Assembly (NCBI GenBank): GCA_965238225.1
Contig: OZ250183.1
Coordinates: 1,376,001 to 1,440,000, forward strand
DNA from: Gammaproteobacteria bacterium
GTDB taxonomy: Bacteria; Pseudomonadota; Gammaproteobacteria; Eutrophobiales; Eutrophobiaceae
Length of the DNA: 64,000 nt
Direction of reading: 5' to 3'
The translations under genes were made by a program, and so were the position numbers. The notes beneath the pieces were generated by a model. It was not told where the DNA came from, searched no databases, and saw only the letters and a program-made list of their open reading frames with translations. Below are positions 28,336-56,924 of this stretch, in pieces (the first letter of the stretch is position 1; the number at the start of each line of letters is the position of its first letter).

Positions 28336-28406
28336 AAAACTTAAAAACACGGAAAACTTAGAAACACGGAAAACTTAGAAAGCACGGAAAACTTAAAAAG
28401 CACCGG
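28336..28406. repeat. 17/18-bp tandem repeat AAAACTTAGAAACACGG, ~4 copies, overlapping the stop codon of gene A
   Basis: Read directly; the last copy contains the TTA stop at 28393. Confidence 0.8.
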
Positions 28407-29003: not shown

Positions 29004-32000
29004 CTAAAACTCAAGACCAAGCTCGAAGTCAAAACTGTCGGTGTGCCCTGAGTCTATGATCTCAGTGCGCTCATAGCCTACTGAACCATAAGCGCCGGTT
29101 TGGGCTTTATATTCAACACCGATACCAAACTTCAAGTTGTGTGTGGCACTGCCGTCTGTAGACAGGGTGTATATTTGTCTGGTCGGGTCGCTCAGGTAAT
29201 AAAGTTCAGCGTCAGAGCTCGGACTTATATCAACACCGTATTCAGCCACACCGAAGGGTCTCAGTGCGCCTTGATTAAGCTCAATGAGACCGTCTATATC
29301 AAGCCCTGTGTACAACACTAGGGTATTTATATCTTGTTTGTTGTAAGTCAGTGCAAAGTCTGAACCAGATTCAGCAAAGTCTCCCAGACTGCTGTATGAC
29401 ACATTAACCCTGCCATAGGGAGAGAGGTTTATATCCTCTTCTTGGAATTTACCTCTGAAGGTCAAGGATGCAAATATTTGTTTTATGTCACGGCTGCCTG
29501 TGAGTAATATATTGTCATTGCCACGGCGTTTTGTATCTACATTAATGCCGCCTACACCTATCATACCTTCAATGGCAGTGTTGTTGTGCAAGTCTAGGGC
29601 AGTGTAGACCGCAAAGCTTATGGCATCTGAATTCAGTGTTGTGTCGTTATTGCCAATCTCAACATCACCTGTACCTAAGCTTACGGCAACACCTAAAAGC
29701 TGTTTGTCATTGGCTGTATATCTGTCTACGCCTAGGGAGATGTTTTGTGAGAAGCTGTCCTGTGCAGATGTGGTGGTGGTTGCATCATAATCACCTAGGG
29801 TGATATTGCCGGCAGTCCAGATTGCCCAAGTATCACTGATGCTGTTACCGCTTAAGGGGTTTAGGGCAGTCAGATGGCCTAAAGTATTGTCTAGGGTATT
29901 GTGTGCCAGTTTGGCAAATTCATTGGCGGCACGGTCGCTAAGCTCTTGTTTGAGCGCAGCAAACACAGACGTGCTGTGGTCGGCGTTATGCTTGGTATTA
30001 TTGGCCAGTGTTCTTGCCATGTTGGCAAGGCGTGCTTGGCTCACAAGGCTATTTTCTTTGGGATTATTGGCCTTATATTCTGCCTTAAAGAGTGCGTCCA
30101 GTGTCGGATGTGCAAAGTTTAAGGTTATGCCTTGATGAGACAGGTTGTTGCTGCCTTTGTGGCGGCGTAACCAGTTCATGCGGTTGGTAATGGTGGTTAC
30201 TGAGGTCTTAGTCCAGTCGACTGCTATATCAGCTTGCATGTTAACACCAGACACAACATCTTTAACTGTTGCAGGGTCAGGGGTGGGCGGTGTTGCTGAT
30301 ACGCTAAAGCTAAAAGTAGCTTGCGTCGCATCACGGCTTGCGCGGTCTACAAATGCGCCTGCTGGGATATTGACTGTGTATTCTGTACTCAGATCAAGAT
30401 TGTTGGACGGGTTGATGGTGACAGCATCAGTATCATTGGCTGTGACTTGTGCACCTGTCACATCAAGTGCTATGGCGGTGCCGCCTGTAGGGGTTAAGGT
30501 GATGGTACCTGTGCCGGCGCTGACTCGCTCACTGAAATTCAGGATAATATCAACATTGGCTGGCACCTCTGTGGCACTGTCTGTCAGTGCGTAGCTTGTA
30601 TTGTCTCTACCAAATGCGTAGGTAGTTAAGCTCGGACTGGTGGTATCAGCGGTGACAGTCAAGACAGCATTCGATGGGCTGGAAACATTACCAGCGCGGT
30701 CTTGTACAAATAATCTATAAGTGCCACTGGCTTGTGGGGCGTAAATAGAAGTAGCATTACCCGCAGCACGGGTGATGGTGGCGCCTTCTGTAAAGTTTTG
30801 CGTGCCTTCTGGTGCAAACCAGATGCTATTGCCGGCATTGCCAGAACTTGTAATGGTGACTTTTTCGTTAGCCATAGCACTTACCGCGCTGGCAAAGACT
30901 GTATCTTGAACCGTGTGGGTAGGCGCTGTGGCTGATACAGTAAAGGTAAAGATACTAGGCAGATTTGGCACAATGTTGCCGGCAAGGTCAGAGAATGATG
31001 ATGAGCCGGCGGATACTGTAACACTTTCACTCGCAACAAAGTCAACGCTTGGATTAATGCTCACCGTATTGCCCACAACTGTGATGCGTGGGTCTGCGCT
31101 GGGAATGGTTTCAGATATAACTGCGGATGTATGAAGAATGATACTGCCTGCACCGCCCGCCACTTTCATGACCACCTCATCAAAGGTCAAGATAATATTG
31201 GCATCGGTGGCAACATTTGTTGCTTGCTCGCTAATTAGATATTGCCTGCCATCTCCGAATGAATAGAATACCAATGCCGGCGCTGTGCTGTCTATGGCGA
31301 GTTCGTTGCTTGTGGTGTCTGTGCCGATATTGCCGGCTGCATCGGTGAATGTTGCACTAACCTCATAGCTGCCATCAGCAAGTGCATTGGCACTTGCCAC
31401 TGTAAAAGACCAAGTGCCATCTGTAGCAACAGTGGGTGTGTAGGTAATAGAGTTTAGCGTCACAGAAAGACTTTCTCCTGTGCCAAGCCCTACGCCTGTG
31501 TCTGTTGTGCCGGTGATGGTTGGGGTGGTGTCATTGCTGCTTAGTGCGTCAACTGTGGGTATAGGCACTGTGTTGTCTACGGTAATGGTAGTACCTGTGA
31601 TAGGGGTTGTGGTGATGGCATTGCCTGCTAAGTCTTGCCCTGTACTTAAGGTAAAGCTTTGTGCACCATCACCAGTACCGACTGTCCAGTCATAGGTATA
31701 GGTTGTTGTATTGACCCTTGTCATGTTGGCGGCAGCAATGCTCTCTACACCAGTGCCTGTAATCTGCGGGATAGGGTTAACTTTTATAGACTCAGAAAAG
31801 GCAGCAGTGATGGTAATGCTATCTCCTGCTTTTACCAGTGTGGCAGTATTAGTGCCTGTGCCATAGGTATAAGCAAGGGTGGCTGTCGGGGCTGTGGTAT
31901 CAATGGTCAGTTCGTCTGTTGAGGAGTCTGTTAGTACACTGCCTCCTGCATCAGTGATTGTTGCAACGACTTGGTAAGTGCCTTCATTAAGTGCATTAAA

Positions 32001-32246
32001 AACCACTACTTGCGCACGCCATGTGGTTGGGGTTACGCTGGCATCAATAACAGGTGTATTGGTAGTAACACTGTTTACTGTTACAGAGTTTAGTGTCTCA
32101 CCTGTCGCAAGGGTGCCGGTGATTTCTGGGGTGGTATCGTTGGTTGTTAGTGCGTCCACCGTGACAGCTTGAGCTGCCTGTGTAGAAAGACCTGTAAAAA
32201 GACCTACAAGAAAAAAGACCAGTGCCTTACTGTTCAGTATTACCAT
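29004..32246 (-). CDS. Array gene B: autotransporter adhesin with Ig-like passenger and C-terminal beta-barrel (~1080 aa)
   Basis: Signal peptide ending AAQA; Thr-rich Ig-like repeats (NDTTPTITGT, DLAGN); C-terminal domain with amphipathic strands ending FDFELGLEF; RBS favours ATG at 32246. Confidence 0.88.
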   Translation of the reverse strand: MVILNSKALVFFLVGLFTGLSTQAAQAVTVDALTTNDTTPEITGTLATGETLNSVTVNSVTTNTPVIDASVTPTTWRAQVVVFNALNEGTYQVVATITDAGGSVLTDSSTDELTIDTTAPTATLAYTYGTGTNTATLVKAGDSITITAAFSESIKVNPIPQITGTGVESIAAANMTRVNTTTYTYDWTVGTGDGAQSFTLSTGQDLAGNAITTTPITGTTITVDNTVPIPTVDALSSNDTTPTITGTTDTGVGLGTGESLSVTLNSITYTPTVATDGTWSFTVASANALADGSYEVSATFTDAAGNIGTDTTSNELAIDSTAPALVFYSFGDGRQYLISEQATNVATDANIILTFDEVVMKVAGGAGSIILHTSAVISETIPSADPRITVVGNTVSINPSVDFVASESVTVSAGSSSFSDLAGNIVPNLPSIFTFTVSATAPTHTVQDTVFASAVSAMANEKVTITSSGNAGNSIWFAPEGTQNFTEGATITRAAGNATSIYAPQASGTYRLFVQDRAGNVSSPSNAVLTVTADTTSPSLTTYAFGRDNTSYALTDSATEVPANVDIILNFSERVSAGTGTITLTPTGGTAIALDVTGAQVTANDTDAVTINPSNNLDLSTEYTVNIPAGAFVDRASRDATQATFSFSVSATPPTPDPATVKDVVSGVNMQADIAVDWTKTSVTTITNRMNWLRRHKGSNNLSHQGITLNFAHPTLDALFKAEYKANNPKENSLVSQARLANMARTLANNTKHNADHSTSVFAALKQELSDRAANEFAKLAHNTLDNTLGHLTALNPLSGNSISDTWAIWTAGNITLGDYDATTTTSAQDSFSQNISLGVDRYTANDKQLLGVAVSLGTGDVEIGNNDTTLNSDAISFAVYTALDLHNNTAIEGMIGVGGINVDTKRRGNDNILLTGSRDIKQIFASLTFRGKFQEEDINLSPYGRVNVSYSSLGDFAESGSDFALTYNKQDINTLVLYTGLDIDGLIELNQGALRPFGVAEYGVDISPSSDAELYYLSDPTRQIYTLSTDGSATHNLKFGIGVEYKAQTGAYGSVGYERTEIIDSGHTDSFDFELGLEF

Positions 32247-32337
32247 AACATTCCTCAACCTTGCGATTACAGCAAACATCTTGTTGTTAAGAATGTTAAT
32301 GATTAAAAGATGCAGTATTACACTAAAACTCTAAAGT

Positions 32338-35300
32338 CTAAAACTCAAGACCAAGCTCTAAGTCAAAACTGTCGGTGTGCCCTGAGTCTATGATCTCAGT
32401 GCGCTCATAGCCTACTGAACCATAAGCGCCGGTTTGGGATTTATATTCAACACCGATACCAAACTTCAAGTTGTGTGTGGCACTGCCGTCTGTAGACAGG
32501 GTGTATATTTGTCTGGTTGGGTCGCTCAGGTAATAAAGTTCAGCGTCAGAGCTCGGACTTATATCAGCACCGTATTCAACCACACCGAAGGGTCTCAGTG
32601 CGCCTTGATTAAGCTCAATGAGATAGTCTACATCAAGCCCTGTGTACAGCACTAGGTTATTTATATCTTGTTTGTTGTAAGTCAGTGCAAAGTCTGAACC
32701 AGATTCAGCAAAGTCTCCCAGACTGCTGTATGACACATTAACCCTGCCATAGGGAGAGAGGTTTATATCCTTTTGTTGGAATTTACCTCTGAAGGTCAAG
32801 GATGCAAATATTTGTTTTATGTCACGGCTGCCTGTGAGTAATATATTGTCATTGCCACGGCGTTTTGTATCTACATTAATGCCGCCTACACCTATCATAC
32901 CTTCAATGGCAGTGTTGTTGTGCAAGTCTAGGGCAGTGTAGACCGCAAAGCTTATGGCATCTGAATTCAGTGTTGTGTCGTTATTGCCAATCTCAACATC
33001 ACCTGTACCTAAGCTTACGGCAACACCTAAAAGCTGTTTGTCATTGGCTGTATATCTGTCTACGCCTAAGGAGATGTTTTGTGAGAAGCTGTCCTGTGCA
33101 GATGTGGTGGTGGTTGCATCATAATCACCTAGGGTGATATTGCCGGCAGTCCAGATTGCCCAAGTATCACTAATACTATCACTGATGCTGTTACCGCTTA
33201 AGGGGTTTAGGGCAGTCAGATGGCCTAAAGTATTGTCTAAAGTATTGTGTGCCAGTTTGGCAAATTCATTGGCGGCACGGTCGCTAAGCTCTTGTTTGAG
33301 CGCAGCAAACACAGACGTGCTGTGGTCGGCGTTATGCTTGGTATTATTGGCCAGTGTTCTTGCCATGTTGGCAAGGCGTGCTTGGCTCACAAGGCTATTT
33401 TCTTTGGGATTATTGGCCTTATATTCTGCCTTAAAGAGTGCGTCCAGTGTCGGATGTGCAAAGTTTAAGGTTATGCCTTGATGAGACAGGTTGTTGCTGC
33501 CTTTGTGGCGGCGTAACCAGTTCATGCGGTTGGTAATGGTGGTTACTGAGGTCTTAGTCCAGTCGACTGCTATATCAGCTTGCATGTTAACACCAGACAC
33601 AACATCTTTAACTGTTGCAGGGTCAGGGGTGGGCGGTGTTGCTGATACGCTAAAGCTAAAAGTAGCTTGCGTGGCATCACGGCTTGCGCGGTCTACAAAT
33701 GCGCCTACTGGGATATTGACTGTGTATTCTGCACTCAGATCAAGATTGTTGGACGGGTTGATGGTGACAGCATCAGTATCATTGGCTGTGACTTGTGCAC
33801 CTGTCACATCAAGTGCTATGGCGGTGCCGCCTGTAGGGGTTAAGGTGATGGTACCTGTGCCGGCGCTGACTCGCTCACTGAAATTCAGGATAATATCAAC
33901 ATTGGCTGGCACCTCTGTGGCACTGTCTGTAAGTGCATAGCTTGTATTGTCTCTACCAAATGCGTAGGTAGTTAAGCTCGGACTGGTGGTATCAGCGGTG
34001 ACAGTCAAGACAGCATTCGATGGGCTGGAAACATTACCAGCGCGGTCTTGTACAAATAATCTATAAGTGCCACTGGCTTGTGGTGCGTAAATAGCAGTAG
34101 CATTGCCCGCAGCACGGGTGATGGTGGTGCCTTCTGTAAAGTTTTGCGTAGATTGCGGTGCAAACCAGATGATATCATCAGCATTACCAGAACCTACAAC
34201 AGTAATCGCTGCGTTAGCCATGCCACTGACCGCACTGGCAAAGACTGTGTCTTGATCGGTGGGGGTAGCCGCTGTGGCTGATGTACCAAAGCGAAGGACT
34301 TCCACTATAGATGTAAAAGCGTTGCCGGCAAGGTCAGAGAATAATGATCCGATACTTAATACAACATCTCTACCCGCAATAAAGTTGATGCTTGGATCGA
34401 TGGTCACTGTATTGCCAGCCACTGTGATGCGTGGGTCTGCGCTGAGAATGGTTTCAGCTATAGGTGTAAGACCTAATGATACGCCTGATTGAATTAGGAT
34501 ATCGCCGCCCGCCACTTTCATGACTGCCTCATTAAAGGTCAAGATAATATTGGCATTGGTGGCAGCATTTGTTACTGTTTCGCTCTCGGTAAATAGATAT
34601 TGCCTGCCATCTCCGATGGCATAGGAGACCAATGCTGGTCTTGTGCCGTCAATGGCGAGTTCGTTGCTGGTGGTGTCTGTGCCGATATTGCCAGTTGCAT
34701 CGGTGAATGTTGCACTAACCTCATAGCTGCCATCAGCAAGTGCATTGGCACTTGCCACTGTAAAAGACCAAGTGCCATCTGTAGCAACAGTGGGTGTGTA
34801 GGTAACAGCGTTTAGCGTCACAGAAAGGCTTTCTCCTGTGCCAAGTGCTATGCCTGTGTCTGTTGTGCCGGTGATGGTTGGGGTGGTGTCATTGGTGGCT
34901 AGTGCGTCAACTGTGGGTACAGGCGCTGTGTTGTCTATGGTAATGGTGGTCCCTGCGGTAGGGGTTGCGGTGATGGTGTTGCCTGCTAAGTCTGTGCCTG
35001 TGCTTAGGGTGAAGCTTTGTGCACCATCACCTGCGCCTACTGTCCAGTCATAGTTATAGGTTGTTGCATTGTGTTTTGTCATGTTGGCGGCAGCAATGTT
35101 CTCTACACCAGAGCCTGTGATTTGCATGACAGGGCTATCTGCCATGGGCTCGTCGAATTTGGCATTAACAATTATGGCATCCCCTGCTTTTACGACACTG
35201 ACAATGATATTACCGCCAGTTTGTTTCAAGTAATAGCGCAGGTAGGCTGTGGGGGCTGTATTGTCTACGCTTAAGGTGGCGGTTGATGGGCTAGAGACAT

Positions 35301-37819
35301 TGCCTACGCTGTCTTGTATAAATAATTTATAGTCGCCTGTGGTTGTGGGGGCTGTAATTGAAGTGGCAGTGCCTGTGGCACGGGTGATGGTGTTGCCTAT
35401 GACAAAGTTTGTGGTGCCTGCTGGGGCAAACCAAACGCTGTTACTTGCATCGCCCGAGCTTGTCGATGGGGACTGTCGCACTGCCGGCAACAGCCCTGCT
35501 GGTAGCAAAGACTGTGTTTTGATTGGTGGGCGCTTGTGTGTCTACGCTTAAGCTCGCGGTTGATGGGCTAGAGACATTACCTGCGCTGTCTTGTACAAAT
35601 AATTTATAGTCGCCTGCTGTTGCAGGGGCTGCAATTGAAGTGGCAGTGCCTGTGGCGCGGGTGATGGTGTTGCCTGCAACAAAGTTTGTGGTGCCTGTTG
35701 GGGCAAACCAAACGCTGTTACTGGCTACGCCTGAGCTTATGATGGGGACTGTCGCACTGCCGGCAACAGCCCTGATATTAGAATTAAAGACTGTGTTTTG
35801 ATTGCTGGGGCTTAAGTTGTCTACGGTGATGCTGGCACCAGATGTGGGGGTTGCGGTGACTGTATTGCCTGTTAAGTCTTGCCCTTGGCTTAAAGTGAAT
35901 GTTTGTGTGCCATCGCCAGTACCGACTGTCCAAGCATAGGTGTAGGTTGTTGCATTGACCCTTGTCATGGTGGCGGCAGAGACAGTATGTGCGCCAGTGC
36001 CGGCAATGCGCATGGCAGGGCTACCTTTCATAGACTCAGAAAAGGCAGCAGTGATGGTGATGTTGGTGCCTTGGTTTACCTGTGTGGCAGTATTAGTGCT
36101 TGTGCCATAGGTATAAGCAAGGGTGGCTGTGGGGGCTGTGTTGTCTACGATGATGCTGGCACCTGAGACAGGGGTCGCGGTGATGGTATTGCCTGCTAAG
36201 TCTGTGCCGTCGCTTAGGGTGAATGTTTGTGTGCCATCACCAGTACCGACTGTCCAAACATAGGTATAGCTTGTTGCATCAACCCTTGTCATGTTGGCGG
36301 CAGAGACAGTATGTGCACCAGTGCCTGTAATCTGCGGGATAGGGAATAATGCTATGTCCTCATTAAAGTCAGCAGTGATGGTGATGCTGGTGCCTTGGCT
36401 TACGCGTGTGGCAGTATTAGTGCTTGTACCATAGGCATAAGTAAGGATGGTTATCGGGCTTAGGTTGTCTACGGTTAAGGTGGCCGTTGATGGGCTAGAA
36501 ACATTGCCTACGCTGTCTTGTACAAATAATTTATAGTCGCCTGCTGTTGCAGGGGCTGTAATCGAAGTGGCAGTGCCGCTTGCAGCGCGGGTTATGGTGC
36601 TACTTGCACTAAAGTTTGTAGTGGTGGCTGGGGCAAACCAAACGCTGTTACTGGCTACGCCTGAGCTTATGATGGGGACTGTCGCACTGCCGGCAACAGC
36701 CCTGCTGGTAGCAAAGACTGTGTTTTGATTGGTGGGGGCTGTATTGTCTACAGTAATGCTGGCACCAGATGTGGGGGTTGCGGTGACTGTATTGCCTGTT
36801 AAGTCTTGCCCTTGGCTTAGAGTGAATGTTTGTGTGCCATCACCAGTACCGACTGTCCAAGCATAGGTATAGCTTGTTGCATTGACCCTTGTCATGTTGG
36901 TGGCAGAGACAGTATGTGCGCCAGTGCCGGCAATGCGCATGGCAGGGCTACCTTTCATAGACTCAGAAAAGGCAGCAGTGATGGTAATGCTATCTCCTGC
37001 TTTTACCCGTGTGGCAGTATTAGTGCTTGCGCCATAGGTATAAGCAAGGGTGGCTGTTGGGGCTGTGTTGTCTACGATGATGCTGGCACCTGAGACAGGG
37101 GTCGCGGTGATGGTATTGCCTGCTAAGTCTGTGCCGTCGCTTAGGGTGAATGTTTGTGTGCCATCATTTGCGCCTACTGTCCAAGCATAGGTATAGCTTG
37201 TTGCATCAACCCTTGTCATATCTGTTGCAGAGACAGTATGTGCGCCAGTGCCTGTAATCTGCGGGACAGGGAGTAATGCCATGTCCTCATTAAAGGTGGC
37301 GGTGATGGTGATGCTGGTGCCTTGGCTTACGCGCGTGGCAGTATTAGTACCCGTACCATAGGTATAAGCGAGGGTGGCTGTGGGGGTTGTGGTATCTATT
37401 GTAAGTGTTGCGTTGGTTGCACTGACAATGCCTCCTGCAAAGATTGTTGCAACGACTGCGTAAGTGCCTTCATTAAGTGCATTAAGAACCGCTACTTGCG
37501 CACGCCATGTGTTTGGGGTTACGCTGTTATCAATAACAGGTGTATTGGTAGCAACACCGTTTACCGTTACACCGACTAGTCCATCACCTGTCGCAAGTGT
37601 GCCGGTGATTGTTGGCGTTGTATCGTTGGTTGTTAGTGTATCAACCGTAATAGCTCGAGCCGCCTGTGCAGACAAAGCTGCAAGAAAAAAGACCAGCGCC
37701 AAGCGTTTTGTTAAGTTTATCATGCTGCCAAGACCCCCAAGCGTATTACTTGGAATCTTGTTTGTGGTGGTGCTTAATTTACCAATTAACTGCATAGGTT
37801 TACTCTTCAGTATTACCAT
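32338..37819 (-). pseudogene. Array gene C: autotransporter adhesin (~1826 aa if joined), split by a +1 frameshift near 35464 (ORF pieces 35441..37819 and 32338..35508)
   Basis: GAGCTTGTCGATGGGG at ~35456-71 versus GAGCTTATGATGGGG in two sister repeats. The N-part has the signal peptide; the C-part has the barrel ending FDLELGLEF. Confidence 0.85.
35520..37390. repeat. ~927-bp internal duplication (three-domain block) in gene C
   Basis: Shadow ORFs at 35903 and 36830 are near-identical at offset 927; the protein block repeats. Confidence 0.85.
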
Positions 37820-37946
37820 AACATTCCTCGAAATAGGCTGTAGTCGATGACTTTAAGAGTTCTGCACGACTTTGCATGACTTTGCGATTATAGCGAACAT
37901 CTGCTGTAGAATACAATACTTAAAGATGCAAGTATTACACTAAAGC

Positions 37947-38010
37947 CTAAAACTCCAAGGTCAACTTCTAAATCGAAACTGTCTGTATGTCTTGAGTTTA
38001 TGGCTTCAAT
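37947..38010 (-). pseudogene. Vestige of the last autotransporter beta-strand downstream of gene D
   Basis: Translates IEAINSRHTDSFDLEVDL(g)EF* versus TEIIDSGHTDSFDLELGLEF* in C; out of frame with D. Confidence 0.8.
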
Positions 38011-38056
38011 ACATGTAGCTTGCCGTGCCCACAGATCGTGTTCCTAGGTAGGTTGG

Positions 38057-42853: not shown

Positions 42854-43251
42854 AACGTTAATACTCCGTCATCTTGTTTGCATTATACTTACACCTAAAA
42901 TTTATACCACTTAAATATCTAACTTAGATTAATTACACCTGATGATTCTATACCCATCTGCTGCATACTCATCTGCTGGTTGATTGCCAATTACTTGTTA
43001 GTATTGACCAATCCTTAACTGGCATAGATTTTAAATAATTTCAAGTGCCTTTTTAAACTGTGCTGCATCCTACAAAAATTCTTTTAGCTTGTTTTAAACC
43101 CTTAGTCTCGTTTTGGTTACAATAAGTTCCTAAAAGATAAAGAGGGCTACCCCAGATAAGTAGGTTATAGTTACCTTAAGGCATTGTTTTAACTGTTTTA
43201 ATTAGTTTAATTGCTTATTATGTGACAGCCCTTAATAGATCGATATTAAGC

Positions 43252-43316
43252 CTAAAAACTCCAAGGTCAACTTCTAAATCGAAACTGTCTGTGTGTCTTG
43301 AGTTTATGGCTTTAAT
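43252..43316 (-). pseudogene. Vestige of the last autotransporter beta-strand downstream of gene E
   Basis: Near-identical to 37947-38010 (IKAINSRHTDSFDLEVDL...). Confidence 0.8.
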
Positions 43317-44036
43317 ACATGTAGAGCTTGCTGTGCCCATAGATCGTGTTCCTAGGTAGATTGGTTATGTGTCGTACCGTCCTGCAAATGACTTGCAATT
43401 GTTTAAATCCACTTCTATTGTGCCGCCGGATGTAGGTTCGCTCACCACCACATTGCCTGCTGAGTCTTCGCCTCGGCTTAGTGTAAATGTTTGTGTGCCG
43501 CCATCAGTGCTCACCACAGTCCAGAGATAGTAATAGGTTCTTGCATTGGCTCTTGTCATGCTGGCAGCAGCAATGCTATCTACACCAGTGCCTGTAATTT
43601 GCGCGGTAGGGAATAATGCCATGTCCTCATTAAAGGTGGCGGTGATACGTACCACATCCCCTACGTTTACTCGAGTCACAGGACTTCCATCTACGGTATA
43701 GGTGAGTTCGGCTGTGGGCGCTGTGCTATCCACTATAATTGTAGTAGATGTGGATGCCATTACATTGCCTGCTAAGTCTGTGCCTTGGCTTAGTGTAAAT
43801 GTTTGTGTGCCATCACCTGTGCTTGCTGTCCAGAAATAGTGAAAGGTTCTATTACTATCTCTTGTCATATTGGTGGCAGCAATGGGCTCTAAACCGGTAC
43901 CTGTGATTTGTATGGGGGGCGTATCTACTATGTCCTCATTGAAGGTAGCAATAACAATCATGTTATCTCCTTGTTTTACTTGGGTGACAACAACAGCAAT
44001 ACCATTAATGCTTTTGTAATAAGTGAGTGTAGCGGT

Positions 44037-47000: not shown

Positions 47001-47136
47001 TCTAACGCTACAGAAAGGGTTTCGCTTAAGCTAAGTGCTGTGCTTGCGCCTATTGTGCCTGTGATTTCAGGGGTTGTGTCATTGCTGGTTAGTGTATTGA
47101 CTGTAGGGGTAGCAGGGGCTGTGGTGTCTACGGTAA
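44037..47136. repeat. 279-bp (93-aa Ig-like domain) tandem repeat, 11 essentially identical copies
   Basis: Shadow ORFs recur from 44197 to 46995 with period 279; one interval is 288 (9-bp insertion) and one is 278 (1-bp deletion). Confidence 0.95.
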
Positions 47137-48110
47137 TGGTGGTAGATGTAGGTGTTATTACATTACCTGCTAAGTCTTCGCCTTGGCTTAGTGTGAATGT
47201 TTGTGTGCCATCACCTGTGCCTGTTGTCCAGAAATAGTGAAAGGTTCTATTACTATCTCTTGTCATATTGGTGGCAGCAATGGGCTCTAAACCAGTGCCT
47301 GTGATTTGCACGGGAGGCGTATTTGCCATGTCCTCACTAAACTCAGCACTGATGATGATGACATCCCCTGCGTTTGCTTCAGTAATACCGTAACTAATGC
47401 CGTTTATTCTTTTGTAATAAGAAAGTTCGACAGTGGGGGCTGTGGTATCCACGGTAACGATAATAACAGTGCTTACGGGTACCACCGCATTACCTGCTAA
47501 GTCTTCGCCTTGGCTTAGTGTGAATGTTTGTGTGCGACCATCACCTATGCCTGCTGTCCAGAAATAGTGAAAGGTTCTATCACTATCTCTTGTCATATTG
47601 GTGGCAGCAATGGGCTCTAAACCAGTGCCTGTGATTTGCACGGGAGGCGTATTTGCCATGTCCTCACTAAACTCAGCACTGATGATGATGACATCCCCTG
47701 CGTTTGCTTCAGTAATACCGTAACTAATGCCGTTTATTCTTTTGTAATAAGAAAGTTCGACAGTGGGGGCTGTGGTATCCGCGGTAACGATAATAATAGT
47801 GCTTACGGGTACCACCGCATTACCTGCTAAGTCTTCGCCTTGGCTTAGTGTGAATGTTTGTGTGCGGCCATCACTTATGCTTGCTGTCCAGAAATAGTGA
47901 AAGGTTCTATTACTATCTCTTGTCATATTGGTGGCAGCAATGGGCTCTAAACCAGTGCCTGTGATTTGCACGGGAGGACTATTTGCCATGTCCTCACTAA
48001 ACTCAGCACTGATGATGATGACATCCCCTGCGTTTGCTTCAGTAATACCGTAACTAATGCCGTTTATTCTTTTGTAATAAGAAAGTTCGACAGTAGGGGC
48101 TGTGGTATCT
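47130..48110. repeat. 330-bp (110-aa) tandem repeat, 3 copies, in gene E
   Basis: Shadow ORFs at 47306, 47636, 47966; YYKRINGISYGITE domain three times. Confidence 0.9.
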
Positions 48111-51100
48111 ATTATGGTAAGTTCGTTTGTTGTAGTGTCTGTACTGACATTGCCTGCTGCATCAGTAATTGTTGCAATGACGTTATGGATGCCACCGGTA
48201 AGTGGTGTATTGGCTGTAAAAGACCATGTGCCATCTGTAGCAACAGTGGGTGTGTAGGTTGTGCCATTTAAGGCAACAGAGAGTGTCTCACCTGTAAGAA
48301 GTGCGTTACCTGTGCCTGTTGTGCCTGTGATTACAGCAGGTGTGCTGGTGTTGCTGGTTAGTGTATTGACTGTGGGAGTCGCAGGGGCTGTGCTATCCAC
48401 TGTAATTGTAGCAGATGCGGGTTCCATCACATTGCCTGCTAAGTCTGTGCCGTTACTCAAAGAAAATGTTTGTATGCCATCACCAGTACCCACTGTCCAA
48501 GAATAGCGAAAGGTTCTATTGCTATATCTTATCATATCGGTGGTAGCAATAAAATTTACCCCCGTGCCTGTGATTTTCATGGGAGGACTATCTGCTATGT
48601 CCTCATTGAATTCGGTATTGATAATGATGACATCCCCTGCTTTTACCTTAGAAAACTCGGTAAGACCGTAACTAATGCCGTTTATACTGAGGTAAGAACG
48701 AACATCGGCTGTAGGGGCTGTGCTATCCACTGTAATTATAGTAGCTGTGGATGCCATCACATTGCCTGCTAAGTCTGTACCTTGGCTTAAGCGAAATGTT
48801 TGTATGCCATCACCTGTGCCTACTGTCCAGAAATAGTGAAAGGTTCTATTACTATCTCTTGTCATATTGGTGGCAGCAATAGGATCTACACCAGTACCTG
48901 TGATTTGTATGGGGGGCGTATCTCCTATGTCCTCATTGAATTCGGCACTGACAATGATGACATCCCCTACTTTTGCTTCGGTAAAACCATAACTAATGCC
49001 GTTTATTCTTTTGTAATAAGAAAGTTCGACAGTAGGGACTGTGGTGTCTACGGTAAGCTCGTTTGATGTAGTATCTGTGCTGACATTGCCTGCTGCATCT
49101 GTGGCTGTTGCAATGACGTTATAGGTGCCATCAGCAAGTGGTGTATTGGCTGTAAAAGACCATGTGCCATCTGTAGCAACAGTGGGTGTGTAGGTTGTAC
49201 CATTTAAGGCAACAGAGAGTGTCTCACCTGTAAGAAGTGCGTTACCTGTGCCTGTTGTGCCTGTGATTTGTGGTGTTGTGTCATTGCTGGTTAGTGTATT
49301 GACTGTAGGGGTAGCAGGGGCTGTGTTGTCTACGGTAATAGTGGTAGATGTAGGTGTTATTACATTACCTGCTAAGTCTGTGGCTTGGCTTAGTGTAAAT
49401 GTTTGTGTGCCATCGCCTGTGCCTACTGTCCATCTATGGTAATAGGTTATTGCATTGAATCTTGTCATGTTGGTGGTGGCGGTAGGATCTACGCCAGTGC
49501 CTGTGATTTGTATGGCAGGCGTATCTGCTATGTCCTCACTAAACGTAGCATTGACAATGATGACATCCCCTGCTTTTACCTTAGAAAACTCGGTAAGACC
49601 GTAACTAATGCCGTTTATACTGAGGTAAGAATGAACATCGGCTGTAGGGGCTGTGGTGTCTATGGTAAGTTCGTTTGATGTAGTGTCTGTGCTGATATTG
49701 CCTGCTGCATCTGTGAATGTTGCAACGACTTCGTAGGTTCCGCTGGTAAGTGCATTAGCATTACTTACTGTAAAAGACCATGTGCCATCTGTAGCAACAG
49801 TAGGTGTGTAGCTTGTGCCATCTAACGCTACAGAAAGGGTTTCTCCTGTAGTAAGTGCTATGCCTGTGCCTGTTGTGCCTGTGATGATAGGGGTTGTGTC
49901 ATTGCTGGTCAGTGTATTGACTGTAGGGGTAGCAGGGGCTGTGTTGTCTACGGTAATGGCAGCAGATGTAGATGCCATTACATTGCCTGCTAAGTCTGTG
50001 CCGTCGCTTAGTGTAAATGTTTGTGTGCCATCGCCTGTGCCTACTGTCCAAAAATAGTAATAGGTTATTGCATTGAATCTTGTCATGCTAGTTACAGCAA
50101 TGGGATCTACGCCAGTACCTGTGATCTGCATATGAGGCGTATATGCGATGTCCTCATTGAAGGTAGCAATAACAATCATGTTATCTCCTTGTTTTACTTG
50201 GGTGACAACAACAGCAATGCCATTAATGCTTTTGTAATAAGTGAGTGTAGCGGTAGGGGCTGTGGTATCTATGGTAAGTTCGTTTGATGTAGTGTCTGTA
50301 CTGACATTGCCTGCTGTGTCTGTGGCTGTTGCAATGACGTTATAGGTGCCACCAGTAAGTGCATTAGCATTACTTACTGTAAAAGACCATGTGCCATCTG
50401 TAGCAACAGTAGGTGTATAGGTTGTGCCATCTAACGCTACAGAAAAGGTTTCGCTTAAGCTAAGTGCTGTGCTTGTGCCTATTGTGCCTGTGATTTGTGG
50501 TGTTGTGTCATTGCTGGTTAGTGTATTGACTGTAGGGGTAGCAGGGGCTGTGTTGTCTACGGTAATGGCAGTAGATGTAGATGCCATTACATTGCCTGCT
50601 AAGTCTGTACCTTGGCTTAGTGTAAATGTTTGTGTGCCATCGCCTGTGCCTACTGTCAATCTATAGGTGTAGATTGTTGTATTGAATTTTGTCATGTTGG
50701 TGGCAGCAATGGGATTTACACCAGTACCTGTAATTTGCATGGCAGGCGTATCTGCTATAGGTTCGCTGAATCTAGCATGGACGATGACGGCATCCCCTGC
50801 TTTTACTGCAGGTATACGATAATTAGCTCCTATACGATAACTCATGCCGTTTACTCTTAGCCAAGAACGGACATCGGCTGTGGGGGCTGTGGTGTCTACG
50901 GTCAGCTCGTTTGATGTAGTGTCTGTGCTGACATTGCCTGCTGTGTCTGTGACTGTTGCAATGACGTTATAGGTGCCACCAGTAAGTGCATTAGCATTAC
51001 TTACTGTAAAAGACCATGTGCCATCTGTAGCAACAGTAGGTGTATAGGTTTCACCATTTAAGGCAACAGAGAGTGTCTCACCTGTAAGAAGTGTGCTACC

Positions 51101-53430
51101 TGTGCCTATTGTGCCTGTGATTTGATAGGGGTTGTGTCATTGCTGGTCAGTGTATTGACTGTAGGGGTAACAGGGGCTGTGTTGTCTACGGTAATGGCAG
51201 TAGATGTAGGTGTTATTACATTGCCTGCAAAGTCTGTGCCTTGGCTTAGTGTGAATGTTTGTGTGCCATCACCTGAGCCGACTTCCCAAAGATAGTAAGT
51301 GCGTCGATAGGAATCTTGTATCATTCTGCTTGTAGCGATGGTGTTTGCCCCTGTGCCTGTGATCTGCATGGGAGGGTCTCTTGTGATGTCCTCATTGAAG
51401 GTAGCAATAACAATCATGTTATCTCCTTGTTTTACTTGGGTGACAACAACAGCAGTGCCGTTAATGTGTTTGTAATAAATGAATGTAGCGGTAGGGGCTG
51501 TGGTATCTATGGTAAGTTCGTTTGATGTAGTATCTGTGCTGACATTGCCTGCTGTGTCTGTGGCTGTTGCAGTGACGTTATAGGTGCCACCAGTAAGTGG
51601 TGTATTGGCTGTAAAAGACCATGTGCCATCTGTAGCAACAGTGGGTGTGTAGCTTGTGCCATCTAACGCTACAGAAAAGGTTTCGCTTAAGCTAAGTGCT
51701 GTGCTTGTGCCTATTGTGCCTGTGATTTCAGGGGTTGTGTCATTGCTGGTTAGTGTATTGACTGTAGGGGTAGCAGGGGCTGTGGTGTCTACGGTCAGTT
51801 CGTTTGATGTAGTATCTGTGCTGACATTGCCTGCTGTGTCTGTGACTGTTGCAGTGATGTCGTAAGTGTCATCAGCAAGTGTATTGACTGTAAAAGACCA
51901 TGTGCCATCTGTAGCAACAGTAGGTGTATAGGTTTCACCATTTAAGGCAACAGAGAGTGTCTCACCTGTAAGAAGTGTGCTACCTGTGCCTATTGTGCCT
52001 GTGATTTGTGGTGTTGGGTCATTGCTGGTTAGTGTATTGACTGTAGGGGTAACAGGGGCTGTGTTGTCTACGGTAATGGCAGTAGATGTAGATGCCATTA
52101 CATTGCCTGCTAAGTCTGTGCCGCCGCTTAGTGTGAATGTTTGTGTGCCATCACCTGAGCCGACTTCCCAAAGATAGTAAGTGTGTCGATAGGAATCTTG
52201 TATCATCCTGCTTGTAGCGATGGTGTTTGCCCCTGTGCCTGTGATCTGCATGGGAGGGTCTCTTGCGATGTCCTCATTGAAAGTGACATCGACAATCATG
52301 TTATCTCCTTGTTTTACTTGGGTGACAACAACAGCAGTGCCGTTAATGTGTTTGTAATAAATGAATGTAGCGGTAGGGGCTGTGGTATCTATGGTAAGTT
52401 CGTTTGATGTAGTGTCTGTGCTGACATTGCCTGCTGTGTCTGTGGCTGTTGCAATGACGTTATAGGTGCCATCAGCAAGTGGTGTATTGGCTGTAAAAGA
52501 CCATGTGCCATCTGTAGCAACAGTGGGTGTATAGGTTTCACCATTTAAGGCAACAGAGAGTGTCTCACCTGTAAGTAGTGTGCTACCTGTGCCTATTGTG
52601 CCTGTGATTTCAGGGGTTGTGTCATTGCTGGTTAGTGTATTGACTGTAGGGGTAATAGGGGCTGTGGTGTCTATTATAAGTTCGTTTGATGTAGTGTCTG
52701 TACTTACATTGCCTGCTGTGTCTGTGGCTGTTGCAGTGATGTCGTAAGTACCATCAGCAAGTGTATTGGCTGTAAAAGACCATGTGCCATCTGTAGCAAC
52801 AGTAGGTGTATAGGTTTCACCATTTAAGGTAATAGAGAGTGTCTCACCTGTAAGAAGTGTGCTACCTGTGCCTGTTGTGCCTGTGATGACAGGGGTTGTG
52901 TCATTGCTGGTTTGTGTATTAATCGTGGGTGTAGTAACAGGGGTTATGCCTATCACTGTAATGGTGTTAGACGTGGTTTCGACAGTGTCCGTGCCTTGGT
53001 GGGTTAAAGTAAATGTTTGTATGCCAACAGCATCATCGTTGATGATCCATGAATAGTAATAGATCTCTCCGAACACTACACTAGAGTATCTCGTCATACT
53101 GGTTGCAGGAAAGCTATGTGCACCAGTACCCGTGATTTCTATGCTAGGATTATCTGCCCATACTATTCCTCCAAGGTCTGTGGCGATGATAAATACATTA
53201 TTCCCTGCTTCTACTTGAGTAACAGTCCGACCATTCATCAAATAAATGAGTGTAGCTTCGGGTGCTGCCTGTGCTACCTGTGCAGAAAATCCTGCAAGGA
53301 AAAAGACCAGTATGAGACGTTTTAGTAGATTAGCTTTGCCTAACATAACGTTAATATTCCGTCATCTGTTTGCGTTATATTTACACCTAAATTTATACCA
53401 CTTATATCTAACATAGTATAACTACACCTT

Positions 53431-53973
53431 AAAACCTTAGCCTGTCTTTATGCAAGCAGAATGCAAGCAAATAGTAATGATTAAATCCTATTACCAATAA
53501 CCATATTGACTCCTGAACTATAACAACTATACAACTATACAACTATACAACTATATACAACTATATAACTATATTGACTCTGACTGCCTGAACCGATACA
53601 GGTTCAATAACATCTAAAATATAGAACATCTAAAATATAGCTTTAAATCTTGTTTTATTCCCCTAAGTCCTACTCTAGATTATTATTATTATACGAGAAC
53701 CTGAGAATACCAAAGTGCTGATTGGCAGCGTCGGTGATGTTGATTCGAATATACCGAACTCCTGTTGGATCATTCTTGATGAGTACATCACTGGTAGACT
53801 GCTTGGTAGTCAGTGTTTGCGTTTCAGAAACCGAAGATTGCCCGTATCCACCTTGGTACATAGTCTGAGCAGTCCAGTTTGTGCCATCTGCTGATGTCTG
53901 GATCTGATAAGTAATATTTTGCCTGGTGTAGTTTGGGCTGCCATCTGCATTCGCTCGACCAAAAGCAAGTCCT
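53431..53973. repeat. Copy 1 of a direct duplication (3' end of gene F plus downstream spacer with short CAACTATA tract); copy 2 at ~56169-57222
   Basis: AAAACCTTAGCCTGTCTTTATGCAAGC...CAAAAGCAAGTCCT shared by both copies. Confidence 0.9.
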
Positions 53974-56790: not shown

Positions 56791-56924
56791 GACTCTGACT
56801 GCCTGAACCGATACAGGTTCAATAACATCTAAAATATAGAACATCTAAAATATAGCTTTAAATCTTGTTTTATTCCCCAGATCCTACTCTACGCCTGAAC
56901 CATTTAACTTACAACACCCATCAA

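What the first reader, a model, noticed from the sequence alone, without database searches (positions are those of the whole stretch)
31560..53270. Antibody-like design: ~25 copies of one Ig-like domain with a fixed framework and two hypervariable segments that are combinatorially reassorted
Seen: framework APTA-x-L-x-Y-[V1]-V(K)xGDxIxxxAxFxExxxxxPxxQITGTG...M-[V2]-WTVGxGDGxQTFTLSxGxDLAGN occurs about 1x in B, 5x in C, 6x in D and 13x in E (three N-terminal-type copies are more divergent). V1 varies in length and sequence: TYGTGTNTATR, YLKQTGGNIIVSV, LSINGISYGLTEFSK, YKRINGISYGFTE, YKSINGIAVVVTQ, WLRVNGMSYRIGANYRIPA, FIDGPYGTPVSQ, SVDDRAVTR, LMNGQPVTQ. V2 does too: RVNATSY, KHNATTY, RYSNRTFRY, RDSNRTFHY, RFNAITYY, QDSYRHTYY, RYSSDSLGEIYYY, WADLDRWPYAYIQTFIY. 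They are Tyr/Arg/aromatic-rich in an otherwise Thr/Gly/Ala protein. The same V1 pairs with different V2: LSINGISYGLTEFSK with RYSNRTFRY (~40150-40340, ~48500-48700) or RFNAITYYH (~49430-49640); YKSINGIAVVVTQ with RFNAITYYY (~50050-50240) or RDSNRTFHY (~43830-44020); YKRINGISYGFTE with KFNATTYYY (~39540-39730) or RDSNRTFHY (~48830-49020). Inference: crossovers in the conserved mid-domain generate a combinatorial repertoire of CDR-like binding surfaces, displayed between invariant spacer domains. I know of no description of this for this domain family.
Basis: partly seen in the sequence, partly recalled or inferred. Interest (0 to 1): 0.88.

Follow-up and report, generated by a model that had tools for sequence, protein, structure and literature searches.

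The report
Mosaic Ig-like repeats in giant adhesins
A small-genome gammaproteobacterium carries a cluster of giant repetitive surface proteins whose unclassified Ig-like domain copies have swapped short DNA tracts with one another, which is the usual behaviour of repeated adhesin genes and not an antibody-like diversity system.

Summary
There are exactly 25 copies of a 107-122 aa Ig-like domain at 31566-53262 on the minus strand. They are distributed 1/5/6/13 once three frame breaks are read through, and every quoted V1/V2 pairing sits at the stated place. The whole 1.72 Mb genome has 49-50 copies in four loci, about 3% of the genome; 0 of 40 relatives have the domain.

Recombination is real. 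The PHI test gave 0 of 1000 permutations, half-domain trees reject each other, and mosaic tracts differ by 0-4 mismatches per 50-150 nt.

"Fixed framework plus two hypervariable segments" is overstated. Only 11 of the 25 most variable positions lie in V1 or V2, and the B-C loop and exposed A/B/E-strand residues vary as much. pN/pS is about 0.6-1.5, and silent divergence is 0.3-0.5 everywhere.

Coevolution contacts and strand order place the V2 tip at the N-terminal pole and the V1 hairpin towards the C-terminal pole.

No reverse transcriptase or recombinase is present. The promiscuous V2 type is also the genome's commonest, as untargeted gene conversion would predict.

The domain has no Pfam, NCBIfam or PDB sequence match, although its profile finds 1031 proteins elsewhere.

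Verdict: mosaic repeat adhesins, a variant of a known kind.

The parts
29004..32279 (-). Gene A: autotransporter adhesin (signal peptide, 1 V copy, Big_13, two Big_5, C-terminal beta-barrel)
   Evidence: Pfam hits: Autotransporter E 7.9e-29, Big_5, Big_13; translation
32338..37819 (-). Gene C+B: one autotransporter adhesin read as two ORFs (C 35441-37819, B 32338-35508). It is split by a +1 nt frame break near 35480 and holds 5 V copies.
   Evidence: 43 nt at the break against 42 nt in two intact paralogous sites. The barrel of B matches that of A.
38057..42853 (-). Gene D: signal peptide, 6 V copies, 7 Big_13/Ca_tandemer spacers, 2 Big_5. It has no barrel and ends in a short Cys-containing tail.
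43365..53346 (-). Gene E as three ORFs: F 51106-53346, E1 46850-51136, E2 43365-47030. Frame breaks are +2 nt near 51125 and -1 nt near 46963. It holds 13 V copies and has the same tail as D.
   Evidence: A Logan contig of run X1 shows the intact frame at 46963, but it may come from paralogous spacers.
44037..47136 (-). 11.1 tandem copies of a 279-bp Big_13/Ca_tandemer spacer, 99% identical at DNA level (stalk)
   Evidence: Tandem Repeats Finder; NCBIfam Ca_tandemer hit E 2.9e-76 on the homologous Big_13 spacers of gene D; E2 itself was not scanned
52942..53262 (-). V copy F_29 (N-terminal cap type)
52057..52377 (-). V copy F_324 (V1 YKHING.. / V2 QDSYR..)
51175..51495 (-). V copy F_618 (same type as F_324)
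50546..50884 (-). V copy E1_85 (WLRVNG.. type, the commonest type in the genome)
   Evidence: AlphaFold model pLDDT 92.1
49937..50257 (-). V copy E1_294, a mosaic: V1 module as E2_998, V2 of the FNA class
   Evidence: 1 mismatch in 137 nt to E2_998 over columns 1-46
49319..49648 (-). V copy E1_497, a mosaic: V1 module as D_832, middle as D_1037, V2 as E1_294
   Evidence: 1/96, 4/152 and 0/54 mismatches. About 100% identical to D_832 from -250 to +80 nt relative to the domain start.
48716..49036 (-). V copy E1_701
48386..48715 (-). V copy E1_808 (directly tandem to E1_701)
47768..48097 (-). V copy E1_1014
47438..47767 (-). V copy E1_1124
47117..47437 (-). V copy E1_1234
43719..44039 (-). V copy E2_998, a mosaic: V1 module as E1_294, remainder as E1_701 and E1_1234
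   Evidence: 1/132, 1/89 and 4/148 mismatches
43392..43718 (-). V copy E2_1105 (C-terminal type)
42434..42769 (-). V copy D_29 (N-terminal cap type)
41501..41821 (-). V copy D_345 (cap type, internal)
40031..40360 (-). V copy D_832 (reference copy for residue numbering)
   Evidence: AlphaFold model pLDDT 91.5
39422..39745 (-). V copy D_1037, a mosaic
   Evidence: 1/73 to E1_1234 in V1; 1/71 to a copy of the 1.57 Mb locus in V2
38414..38779 (-). V copy D_1359 (longest copy, unique V1 and V2)
38084..38413 (-). V copy D_1481 (C-terminal type)
37061..37384 (-). V copy C_146 (canonical short-hairpin type)
36737..37060 (-). V copy C_254
36134..36457 (-). V copy C_455
35810..36133 (-). V copy C_563
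34924..35253 (-). V copy B_86
31566..31889 (-). V copy A_131

Best explanation
The region is a cluster of four giant, Sec-exported, repeat-built surface proteins. Two are classical autotransporters and two, as assembled, lack a barrel.

ARCHITECTURE. The proteins alternate Ca-tandemer/Big_13 stalk domains with an unclassified Ig-like beta-sandwich, the 'V domain'. The genome holds about 50 V copies in four loci.

AGE AND CONSTRAINT. The copies are old paralogues; silent-site difference is 0.3-0.5. The hydrophobic core, both poles and the exposed side of the C/F/G sheet are held by purifying selection. The exposed side of strands A/B/E, the B-C loop and two hairpins drift at about the neutral rate and also change in length. 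The two hairpins are V1 (A-A' plus its connector) and V2 (the C'-E tip).

EXCHANGE. Because the copies share stretches of near-identical DNA, ordinary homologous recombination moves tracts of roughly 50-330 nt between copies. This happens both within a gene and between loci hundreds of kb apart. Gene conversion or unequal crossing-over would both do this. The result is that V1-, middle-, V2- and tail-modules appear in several combinations.

SHOWN. The copies, the fold class, the mosaic tracts, the site-class pattern and the absence of dedicated diversity machinery.

INFERRED.
- The Tyr/Arg-rich hairpins and the variable side are ligand-contact surfaces of a multivalent adhesin.
- The reassortment is a by-product of repeat recombination, partly homogenising, and not a selected combinatorial mechanism.
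- V1 and V2 of one domain lie towards opposite poles.
For: COPIES AND ARCHITECTURE.
- establish the copies and the domain architecture.
- There are 50 matches in the own genome. In stop-to-stop ORFs at four loci, 49 exceed 60 bits.
- The four loci total 51,534 bp, or 2.99% of the genome.

FOLD.
- Two AlphaFold models have pLDDT 91.5 and 92.1 and pTM 0.82.
- The Foldseek search gives only generic Ig-like/E-set neighbours, with best query TM 0.66.

RECOMBINATION.
- PHI gave 0/1000 and 0/500 permutations.
- The copying model gives tracts with 0-4 mismatches per 52-153 nt flanked by 10-30% divergence.
- D_832 and E1_497 are about 100% identical from -250 to +80 nt and 70-83% after that.
- Donors include copies of the loci at 1.10 and 1.57 Mb.

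SITE CLASSES, pN/pS.
- core: 0.19-0.24
- C/F/G exposed: 0.41-0.65
- A/B/E exposed: 1.19-1.49
- B-C loop: 1.06-1.41
- V1: 0.59-0.94
- V2 loop: 0.75-0.84
Entropy of A/B/E exposed positions against C/F/G exposed positions is 2.03 vs 0.99, Mann-Whitney p 0.002.

TOPOLOGY. Coevolution ladders are B-E, C-F, F-G and the C'-E hairpin. The V2 stem and tip contact the B-C loop (42-63, 39-66). P1 contacts the DLAGN and B-C loops. K25 contacts residues 107/108.

COMPOSITION.

NO DEDICATED MACHINERY. No reverse transcriptase in a 100% complete genome. Flanking genes are housekeeping.

V1/V2 FORMS ARE DERIVED. External homologues have the short canonical hairpin and copies that are nearly uniform within a protein.
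Against: - The asymmetry between a variable and a conserved face, together with Tyr/Arg enrichment, is what a selected binding surface would look like. pN/pS of 1.2-1.5 on the A/B/E side is compatible with weak diversifying selection.
- My structural site classes were drawn from strand alternation and coevolution ladders, but I had already seen the entropies when I drew them, so the contrast is partly post hoc.
- V1-V2 distance was never measured.
- Coevolution signals for residues 12-23 rest on columns that are 60-100% gaps in the wider family, so they are unreliable.
- The direction of the exchanges is unknown.
- Three frame breaks in the window, and more in the other loci, leave open whether the genes are expressed as I read them.
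Confidence: 0.68

Rival explanations
1. The V domains are a germline repertoire of binding modules, and reassortment of V1 and V2 is selected because it creates new CDR-like binding surfaces.
For: - Mosaicism is real.
- V1 and V2 are Tyr/Arg-rich and vary in length.
- One side of the domain is variable and the other conserved.
- The long V1 and unusual V2 forms are derived relative to external homologues.
- V2 region pN/pS is 1.06 against 0.53 for the flanks.
Against: - V1 and V2 are inferred to lie at opposite poles.
- Only 11 of the 25 most variable positions are in V1 or V2.
- Few classes exist: 8 of 16 pairs among the 13 copies (my tally).
- Three other loci repeat a single type about 12 times.
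- The promiscuous V2 class is the commonest one in the genome.
- There is no dedicated machinery.
- pN/pS is near 1, not well above it.
Confidence: 0.17
2. Purely structural reading. The V domains are stalk or spacer elements with no binding role, the variable segments are simply unconstrained surface, and the mosaic is neutral.
For: - pN/pS is about 1 in the variable classes.
- In the wider family every exposed position varies; entropy is 2.5-2.7 on both sheets.
- The same genes contain an 11-copy, 99% identical stalk array.
Against: - Arg and aromatic residues are concentrated 5- to 12-fold in V1/V2, in proteins otherwise almost free of Arg and Lys.
- V1 is a confidently folded extended hairpin; block pLDDT is 81-88.
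- Domain types are position-specific, with cap, internal and C-terminal types.
Confidence: 0.1
3. Assembly artefact. The mosaic copies and the frame breaks are chimeric consensus errors in a highly repetitive region.
For: - There are three frame breaks in the window and more in the other adhesin loci.
- At 46963 the only X1 contig covering the place has the extra base that restores the frame, 255 of 255 depth.
Against: - The genome is a single closed contig.
- The V modules differ by 10-30%, so they are easily told apart by reads.
- Mosaic tracts are shared by copies in different genes and loci with clean boundaries.
- Several Logan contigs of 110-169 nt match E1 V copies with 0 differences (table 8).
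- The X1 contig at 46963 may derive from the many paralogous spacers.
Confidence: 0.05

Closest known systems
Periscope proteins and other repeat-number-variable surface proteins (SasG, Rib/alpha C, Sgo0707). PMC8201768; I read passages of it.
   Same: - Tandem arrays of folded domains with very high DNA identity; here an 11 x 279 bp array at 99%.
- Intragenic recombination is the engine.
- Surface location.
   Different: - Here the arrays interleave a second, diverged domain type, and exchanges occur at sub-domain scale.
- Length variation between strains was not testable.
Neisseria Opa proteins, in which HV1 and HV2 are reassorted by recombination among several loci. PMC2265424; I read passages of it (124 of 7068 possible HV1/HV2 combinations seen).
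   Same: - Two variable segments in a conserved scaffold.
- Several loci per genome.
- Recombination yields only a fraction of the possible pairs, with dominant 'diagonal' combinations.
   Different: - Opa is an 8-stranded outer-membrane barrel with variable loops, is phase-variable and is under documented immune selection across a population.
- Here the variation is among copies inside one genome and one polypeptide, with no population data.
Ca2+-stabilised giant repeat adhesins (NCBIfam Ca_tandemer NF033510, Pfam Big_13)
   Same: The spacer domains match at E 2.9e-76 and 2.8e-64. The composition is acidic and free of Lys/Arg.
   Different: - Such adhesins are, from my recollection, usually type 1 secreted. 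Here export is by signal peptide plus an autotransporter barrel, or an unknown route.
- The V domain is not part of those families.
Classical (type Va) autotransporter adhesins
   Same: Genes A and C+B have an N-terminal signal peptide, a passenger and a PF03797 barrel.
   Different: - The passenger is a string of Ig-like domains, whereas from my recollection the usual passenger is a beta-helix.
- D and E lack the barrel as assembled.
Antibody V domains, lamprey VLR assembly and diversity-generating retroelements
   Same: The analogy is limited to a conserved scaffold with variable, Tyr-rich segments and, for VLR, gene-conversion-like mosaics (from my recollection).
   Different: - There is no somatic or programmed mechanism and no reverse transcriptase.
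- Variation includes indels and is not adenine-specific.
- V1 and V2 are not inferred to be adjacent.
Giant extracellular proteins of Apilactobacillus kunkeei. PMC12863079; I saw only the search listing and the start of the abstract.
   Same: A small genome spends several percent of its DNA on consecutive genes for giant surface proteins (6% of 1.5 Mb there, 3% of 1.72 Mb here).
   Different: Different phylum and different domains. I did not read the paper's text.

Membership tests
Autotransporter (type Va secretion), genes A and C+B | C-terminal PF03797 beta-barrel | tested here: met
   A: E 7.9e-29, 101.6 bits against a cut-off of 26. The C-terminus of B matches the A barrel at E 7.8e-258.
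Autotransporter (type Va secretion), genes A and C+B | N-terminal signal peptide | tested here: inconclusive
   Hydrophobic N-termini ending in A-x-A are visible in the translations. No signal-peptide predictor was run.
Autotransporter, genes D and F+E1+E2 | C-terminal beta-barrel | tested here: not met
   Both end in a short tail directly after the last V copy. The barrel search hits six other ORFs and neither of these.
Big_13 / Ca_tandemer (spacer domains) | Match above the curated cut-off | tested here: met
   Big_13 gives 214.4 bits (cut-off 27) with 7 stretches in D. Ca_tandemer gives 251.9 bits (cut-off 50).
Any curated Ig-like family (Pfam, NCBIfam) for the V domain | Match above the curated cut-off over the V copies | tested here: not met
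   - ORF C, which is four V copies plus another unknown domain, has no Pfam hit above cut-off and 0 NCBIfam families.
- The PDB profile search has a best E of 0.62.
- hhalign against the spacer profile gives probability 26%.
Ig-like beta-sandwich fold (V domain) | Two-sheet sandwich of 7-8 strands | tested here: met
   - AlphaFold models have pLDDT 91.5 and 92.1, each with 8 strands.
- Foldseek neighbours are Ig-like/E-set domains with query TM of 0.66 or less.
- Coevolution ladders are B-E, C-F and F-G.
Antibody-like paratope (paired variable loops) | Variable segments adjacent at one pole of the domain | tested here: inconclusive
- Strand order plus coevolution contacts place the V2 tip with the B-C loop and the N-terminus, and the V1 turn after a full-length first strand near the C-terminal pole.
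- This is inference only.
Diversity-generating retroelement target | Reverse transcriptase and template repeat; adenine-specific substitutions | tested here: not met
   PF00078 gives 0 matches in the 100% complete genome; the control search hit 3 of 14 control genomes. The variants differ by indels.
Periscope protein | Tandem array of near-identical folded repeats | tested here: met
   11.1 copies of 279 bp at 99% identity.
Periscope protein | Repeat-number variation between strains | not testable with these tools
   Only one sample holds the region (X1 and X2 are the same sample). X3 laid nothing.

The most novel reading that the evidence does not exclude
The V domain is a previously unclassified Ig-like binding module with one conserved face and one variable face. 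In this lineage, about 50 intragenomic copies form a germline library. Its sub-domain modules are the V1 finger, the B-C loop with the middle, the V2 finger and the tail. These modules are reshuffled by inter-locus gene conversion to retune what the cell sticks to. Composite sites may form between the V1 of one domain and the V2/B-C pole of the next in V-V tandems.
Probability: 0.15. Interest if true: 0.7.

Novelty: new variant of a known kind. Interest (0 to 1): 0.4.

Why it matters
If the ordinary reading is right, this is a clean, quantifiable case of sub-domain gene conversion among about 50 paralogous Ig-like repeats in a 1.72 Mb genome. It also flags a widespread domain family that no curated library covers: 1031 representative proteins in several phyla, all unnamed in the ten I looked up.

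If the bold reading is right, it would be a bacterial, germline-encoded, modular way of diversifying an adhesive surface. That could be tested with recombinant single domains.

Either way, annotation pipelines will call these genes hypothetical and fragmented. The frame breaks need raw-read checks.

Tried and rejected
- Diversity-generating retroelement: no reverse transcriptase in the genome, and the variants differ by indels. Rejected.
- Scan of genome contigs with the V alignment. The first try could not be run because no stretch was conserved enough. With a nine-copy sub-alignment, 218 pattern matches were found but none encoded a relative.
- Naming the organism with the PurA protein: the best listed relatives are only 62-71% identical and belong to many gammaproteobacterial families. 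Genus not established.
- RuBisCO large subunit is absent and SoxZ is present twice. This is only a hint of lifestyle.
- Public runs.
  - Two runs of one sample hold the stretch as short Logan contigs. A third run, from another sample, laid nothing.
  - The many 'other letters' are cross-matches from paralogous copies. The single joint has a 21-letter side. None of this says anything about population variants.
- Coevolution analysis for V1: the columns for residues 12-23 are 60-100% gaps in the family, so contacts such as 15-33 and 17-33 cannot be trusted.
- In one search only the two comparisons between genes D and E1 are valid. In the other six the flanks overlapped or shifted, and I discard them.
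- Profile comparison of the V domain with the spacer gave probability 26%, which is not enough to call them one family.
- The ESM Atlas gave only unnamed clusters, some with Big_12 on 11-14% of members and one on 91%. This is a lead only.
- One MAFFT run timed out and was repeated with faster settings.

Full report
WHAT IS THERE

The minus strand of 29004-53346 is filled by very large ORFs rich in Thr, Gly, Ala and Asp. Read with their frame breaks they make four genes.

- Gene A (29004-32279) is an autotransporter. Pfam gives the Autotransporter barrel at E 7.9e-29, together with Big_5 and Big_13.
- Gene C+B (C 35441-37819, B 32338-35508) is a second autotransporter. It is split by one extra base near 35480: 43 nt against 42 nt at two intact paralogous sites.
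- Gene D (38057-42853) has a signal-peptide-like start and no barrel.
- Gene E is read as F (51106-53346), E1 (46850-51136) and E2 (43365-47030). It has a +2 break near 51125 and a -1 break near 46963. It ends in the same short tail as D.

None of the breaks lies in a simple homopolymer. The +2 site looks like a join of two natural variants of the same codons.

Logan contigs of the sample that holds this sequence show the frame-restoring base at 46963, at 255 of 255 depth in one contig. That contig may come from the many paralogous spacers, so the question stays open.

Flanking genes are housekeeping:
- UvrA, SSB, PEPCK and pyruvate kinase
- sulfite reductase, RmuC, a DegQ-like protease and COQ7
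- a type IV pilin, RNase R and PurA

There is no integrase, transposase or recombinase next to the cluster.

CHECKING THE OBSERVATION

A profile seeded from one copy and iterated on the seven ORF translations returned 70 domain hits. Of these, 25 score 83.6-138.8 bits and the remaining 45 score 52.5 bits or less. The low scorers are the other Ig-like domain types.

The 25 copies are 107-122 aa long and lie at 31566-53262. All seven quoted V1/V2 pairings sit at the quoted coordinates.

The Tyr/Arg/aromatic richness is real:
- V2: 27.4% aromatic, 12.2% Arg
- V1: 11.7% aromatic, 4.9% Arg
- rest of the domain: 5.3% aromatic, 1.0% Arg
- spacers: almost no Arg or Lys

The window holds only half of the story. 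The genome is a single 1,722,049-bp contig, 100% complete. It has 50 profile matches, of which 49 exceed 60 bits, in 15 stop-to-stop ORFs at four loci.

The other three loci lie at about 1.03, 1.10-1.11 and 1.57 Mb. They mostly repeat one type about 12 times, with little change: the long WLRVNG.. V1 paired with the RFNATTYTYRW-like V2.

The four loci add up to 51,534 bp, or 2.99% of the genome. None of 40 relatives searched has the domain at E <= 0.001. Those were 10 of the same genus, 14 of the same family and 16 of the same class; 30 of the 41 genomes searched, the window's own included, were at least 90% complete.

HOW VARIABLE, AND WHERE

The picture of a fixed framework with two hypervariable segments is too sharp.

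- Only 11 columns are invariant among the 25 copies, and mean column identity is 49%.
- Of the 25 most variable positions, 6 lie in V1 (residues 8-23 of the reference copy 40031-40360) and 5 in V2 (62-72). The other 14 are in the B-C loop (42, 43, 45, 46), exposed residues of strand A (4, 6) and strand B (33, 35), the C-C' and E-F turns and the F-G loop.
- Mean entropy is 1.68 for V1, 1.74 for V2 and 1.15 for the rest.
- The V domain as a whole is more variable than the spacers of the same genes. Mean entropy is 0.79 against 0.45, and mean pairwise identity is 66% against 81%.
- Silent-site difference is 0.3-0.5 in all parts of the domain. The copies are therefore old, and the conserved parts are kept by protein-level selection. 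Wholesale DNA homogenisation does not explain them. Only a few short stretches have low silent divergence (0.06-0.08).

pN/pS by structural class, as a range over three copy sets:
- buried strand positions: 0.19-0.24
- exposed positions of strands C, F, G: 0.41-0.65
- exposed positions of strands A, B, E: 1.19-1.49
- B-C loop: 1.06-1.41
- V1: 0.59-0.94
- V2 loop: 0.75-0.84

With the coarser partition, the V2 region gives 1.06 against about 0.53-0.57 elsewhere.

Entropy of the A/B/E exposed set exceeds that of the C/F/G exposed set, 2.03 against 0.99 (Mann-Whitney p 0.002).

In the wider family both sets vary equally, at 2.48 and 2.71. The conserved C/F/G side is therefore a feature of this lineage.

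A caveat applies: I drew the classes from strand alternation and coevolution ladders after I had seen the entropies.

RECOMBINATION

The pairwise homoplasy index is far below its permuted values.
- For the 13 internal copies of D and E, with 149 informative sites, it is 0.227 against a mean of 0.377 (sd 0.010). None of 1000 permutations was as low.
- For all 25 copies it is 0.607 against 0.692. None of 500 permutations was as low.

Maximum-likelihood trees of the 5' and 3' halves, cut at the ITGTG motif, reject each other. The cost is 173.6 and 98.6 lnL for the 13 copies and 241.6 and 182.1 lnL for all 25. AU p is at or below 1e-7 in all four tests.

A copying model was run over 36 representatives of the 49 genome copies. 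It resolves clean tracts.
- The copy at 43719-44039 follows 49937-50257 for columns 1-44 (1 mismatch in 132 nt). It then follows 48716-49036 (1/89), and then 47117-47437 (4/148).
- The copy at 49319-49648 follows 40031-40360 through V1 (1/96), then 39422-39745 (4/152), then 49937-50257 through V2 (0/54).
- Donors include copies at the 1.10 and 1.57 Mb loci.

Breakpoints gather in the conserved stretches after V1, after strand B, before V2, after V2 and at DLAGN. Four or five modules are being exchanged, not two halves.

One tract runs on into the upstream spacer: 40031-40360 and 49319-49648 are about 100% identical from -250 to +80 nt and 70-83% identical after that (only the two D-versus-E1 comparisons of that call are valid).

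Breakpoints in conserved stretches are what any homology-dependent exchange gives, and they can only be seen there.

STRUCTURE

AlphaFold models of two copies are confident, with pLDDT 91.5 and 92.1 and pTM 0.82. They show eight strands:
- a long first strand (2-11)
- a tight Asn-Gly turn
- a short return strand (14-17/18)
- a connector of variable length
- strands B, C, C', E, F and G

V1 is thus the A-A' hairpin plus its connector. V2 is the lower half of the C'-E hairpin.

Foldseek finds only generic Ig-like/E-set neighbours, with best query TM 0.66 and one hit at E <= 0.001.

The tools return no coordinates, so I could not measure the V1-V2 distance. As a substitute I extracted 680 domain instances from the 150 best representative proteins. 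I then ran mean-field coevolution analysis on 651 and 502 aligned instances.

The top-ranked pairs give antiparallel ladders B-E, C-F and F-G and the C'-E hairpin.
- They put the V2 stem and tip against the B-C loop (42-63, 39-66).
- They put the first residue against the DLAGN and B-C loops.
- They put residue 25, just after V1, against the C-terminal residues 107/108.

Taken with the alternation of strand direction, this places V2, the B-C loop, the F-G loop and the N-terminus at one pole. It places the V1 turn, the AGD, GTG and GDG turns and the C-terminus at the other pole.

So V1 and V2 of one domain are probably not neighbouring loops. This is inference and is the weakest link of my reading.

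In V-V tandems, the V1 of one domain could approach the V2/B-C pole of the next. This was not tested.

THE DOMAIN FAMILY

The V domain has no match in the curated libraries.
- It has no Pfam or NCBIfam hit above cut-off. ORF C, made of four V copies and another unknown domain, has none.
- It has no PDB sequence relative; the best E is 0.62.
- Its profile resemblance to the spacer is weak, at hhalign probability 26%.

The V-domain profile nevertheless finds many proteins among 1.84 billion representatives: 1031 at E <= 0.001, 527 at E <= 1e-10 and 86 at E <= 1e-30.
- Of the ten I looked up, three are from Riflebacteria or Wallbacteria bins.
- Of the five I scanned, some carry T9SS sorting domains or SLH domains.
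- None of the ten has a name other than hypothetical.

Most external matches start at profile position about 20. Residues 12-23 of the reference copy are 60-100% gaps in the family.

Close external homologues have a short canonical hairpin and copies that are nearly uniform within a protein. The long, aromatic V1 and the unusual V2 forms of genes D and E are therefore derived in this lineage.

The copies of genes A and C+B, and the C-terminal copies of D and E, are closest to the canonical form.

INTERPRETATION

The best-supported account is that these are mosaic repeat adhesins. Old paralogous Ig-like modules keep their core, their poles and one face. The other face and two fingers are free to vary. 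Ordinary homologous recombination moves short tracts among about 50 copies.

Nothing points to a dedicated diversity mechanism.
- There is no reverse transcriptase.
- There is no nearby recombinase.
- The variation is not adenine-specific.

Among the 13 internal copies I count 8 of the 16 possible pairs of the four V1 and four V2 classes (my tally from the table). Four pairs are dominant and four are singletons. Three of the four singletons carry the V2 class that belongs to the commonest repeat of the genome. This is what untargeted gene conversion would give. It can be read as homogenisation in progress as easily as diversification.

The Tyr/Arg concentration and the one-sided variability still make a binding role for the variable side plausible.

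COMPARISON WITH WHAT IS KNOWN

- The 11 x 279-bp, 99% identical spacer array fits the Periscope-protein idea of length-variable stalks driven by intragenic recombination (PMC8201768, passages read).
- The closest described parallel for two variable segments reassorted among loci is Neisseria Opa HV1/HV2. There, 124 of 7068 possible pairs were seen and diagonal pairs dominate (PMC2265424, passages read). Opa is a different fold and has population-level evidence.
- Three full-text searches found no description of this domain family. Because the family has no name, this does not show that none exists.
- Supplementary files were not consulted.

VERDICT

I class it as a new variant of a known kind, with interest 0.4.

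Noticed in passing
window 53516-53573 and 56254-56790 (with 53574-53660 and 56791-56880): - The regions upstream of gene F and of the beta-helix/F5-8 type C gene G share a duplicated segment of about 250 bp. It contains an octamer microsatellite (unit AACTATAC on the + strand), about 7 copies in one and about 67 in the other, next to a 16-bp direct repeat.
- These are the only arrays of this unit (three or more copies), and the only arrays of 4-9-bp units with six or more copies, in the whole genome.
- This is a candidate hypermutable promoter element.
   Followed up: partly
window 53670-56063 (-): Gene G is a secreted-looking protein with a right-handed beta-helix, a GH141-type insertion domain and a C-terminal F5/8 type C (discoidin) domain. 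It sits directly upstream of the adhesin cluster.
   Followed up: no
window 35525-35758, 36452-36688, 35248-35475, 33976-34227, 30630-30896 (-): A second unclassified domain of about 80 aa (SSG..NSVWFAP..ITRA..LFVQD..GNVSSPS) recurs in genes A and C+B. It has no Pfam or NCBIfam match above cut-off, and it scores 44.6-52.5 bits against the V profile.
   Followed up: no
window 38057-38090 and 43365-43400 (-): Genes D and E end in the same short tail containing a Cys (..NNCKSFAGRYDT) with no barrel or known sorting signal. A gene of the 1.10 Mb locus with the same N-terminus ends in an autotransporter barrel. The gene of the 1.57 Mb locus ends in a different, unidentified C-terminal domain.
   Followed up: partly
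G000:C1 about 1106999-1113495 and 1568528-1576698: The adhesin genes of the other loci are also broken into overlapping or adjacent ORFs, so further frame breaks exist there. One V copy at 1574096 is cut at its N-terminus. Frame breaks seem confined to these repeat genes.
   Followed up: no
window 28336-28403 and 28779-28866: Short tandem repeats lie downstream of gene A: a 17-mer in 3.9 copies, and a perfect 15-mer in 5.9 copies. They overlap an ORF of 192 aa with no family match.
   Followed up: no
V domain residues 42 and 63 of the reference copy (40031-40360): The B-C loop position 42 and the V2 stem position 63 are among the strongest coevolving pairs in the family, and they co-vary among the window's own copies. 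Asp with Arg or Lys is usual; in two copies, Arg at 42 goes with Gln at 63. A salt bridge tying V2 to the B-C loop is likely.
   Followed up: partly
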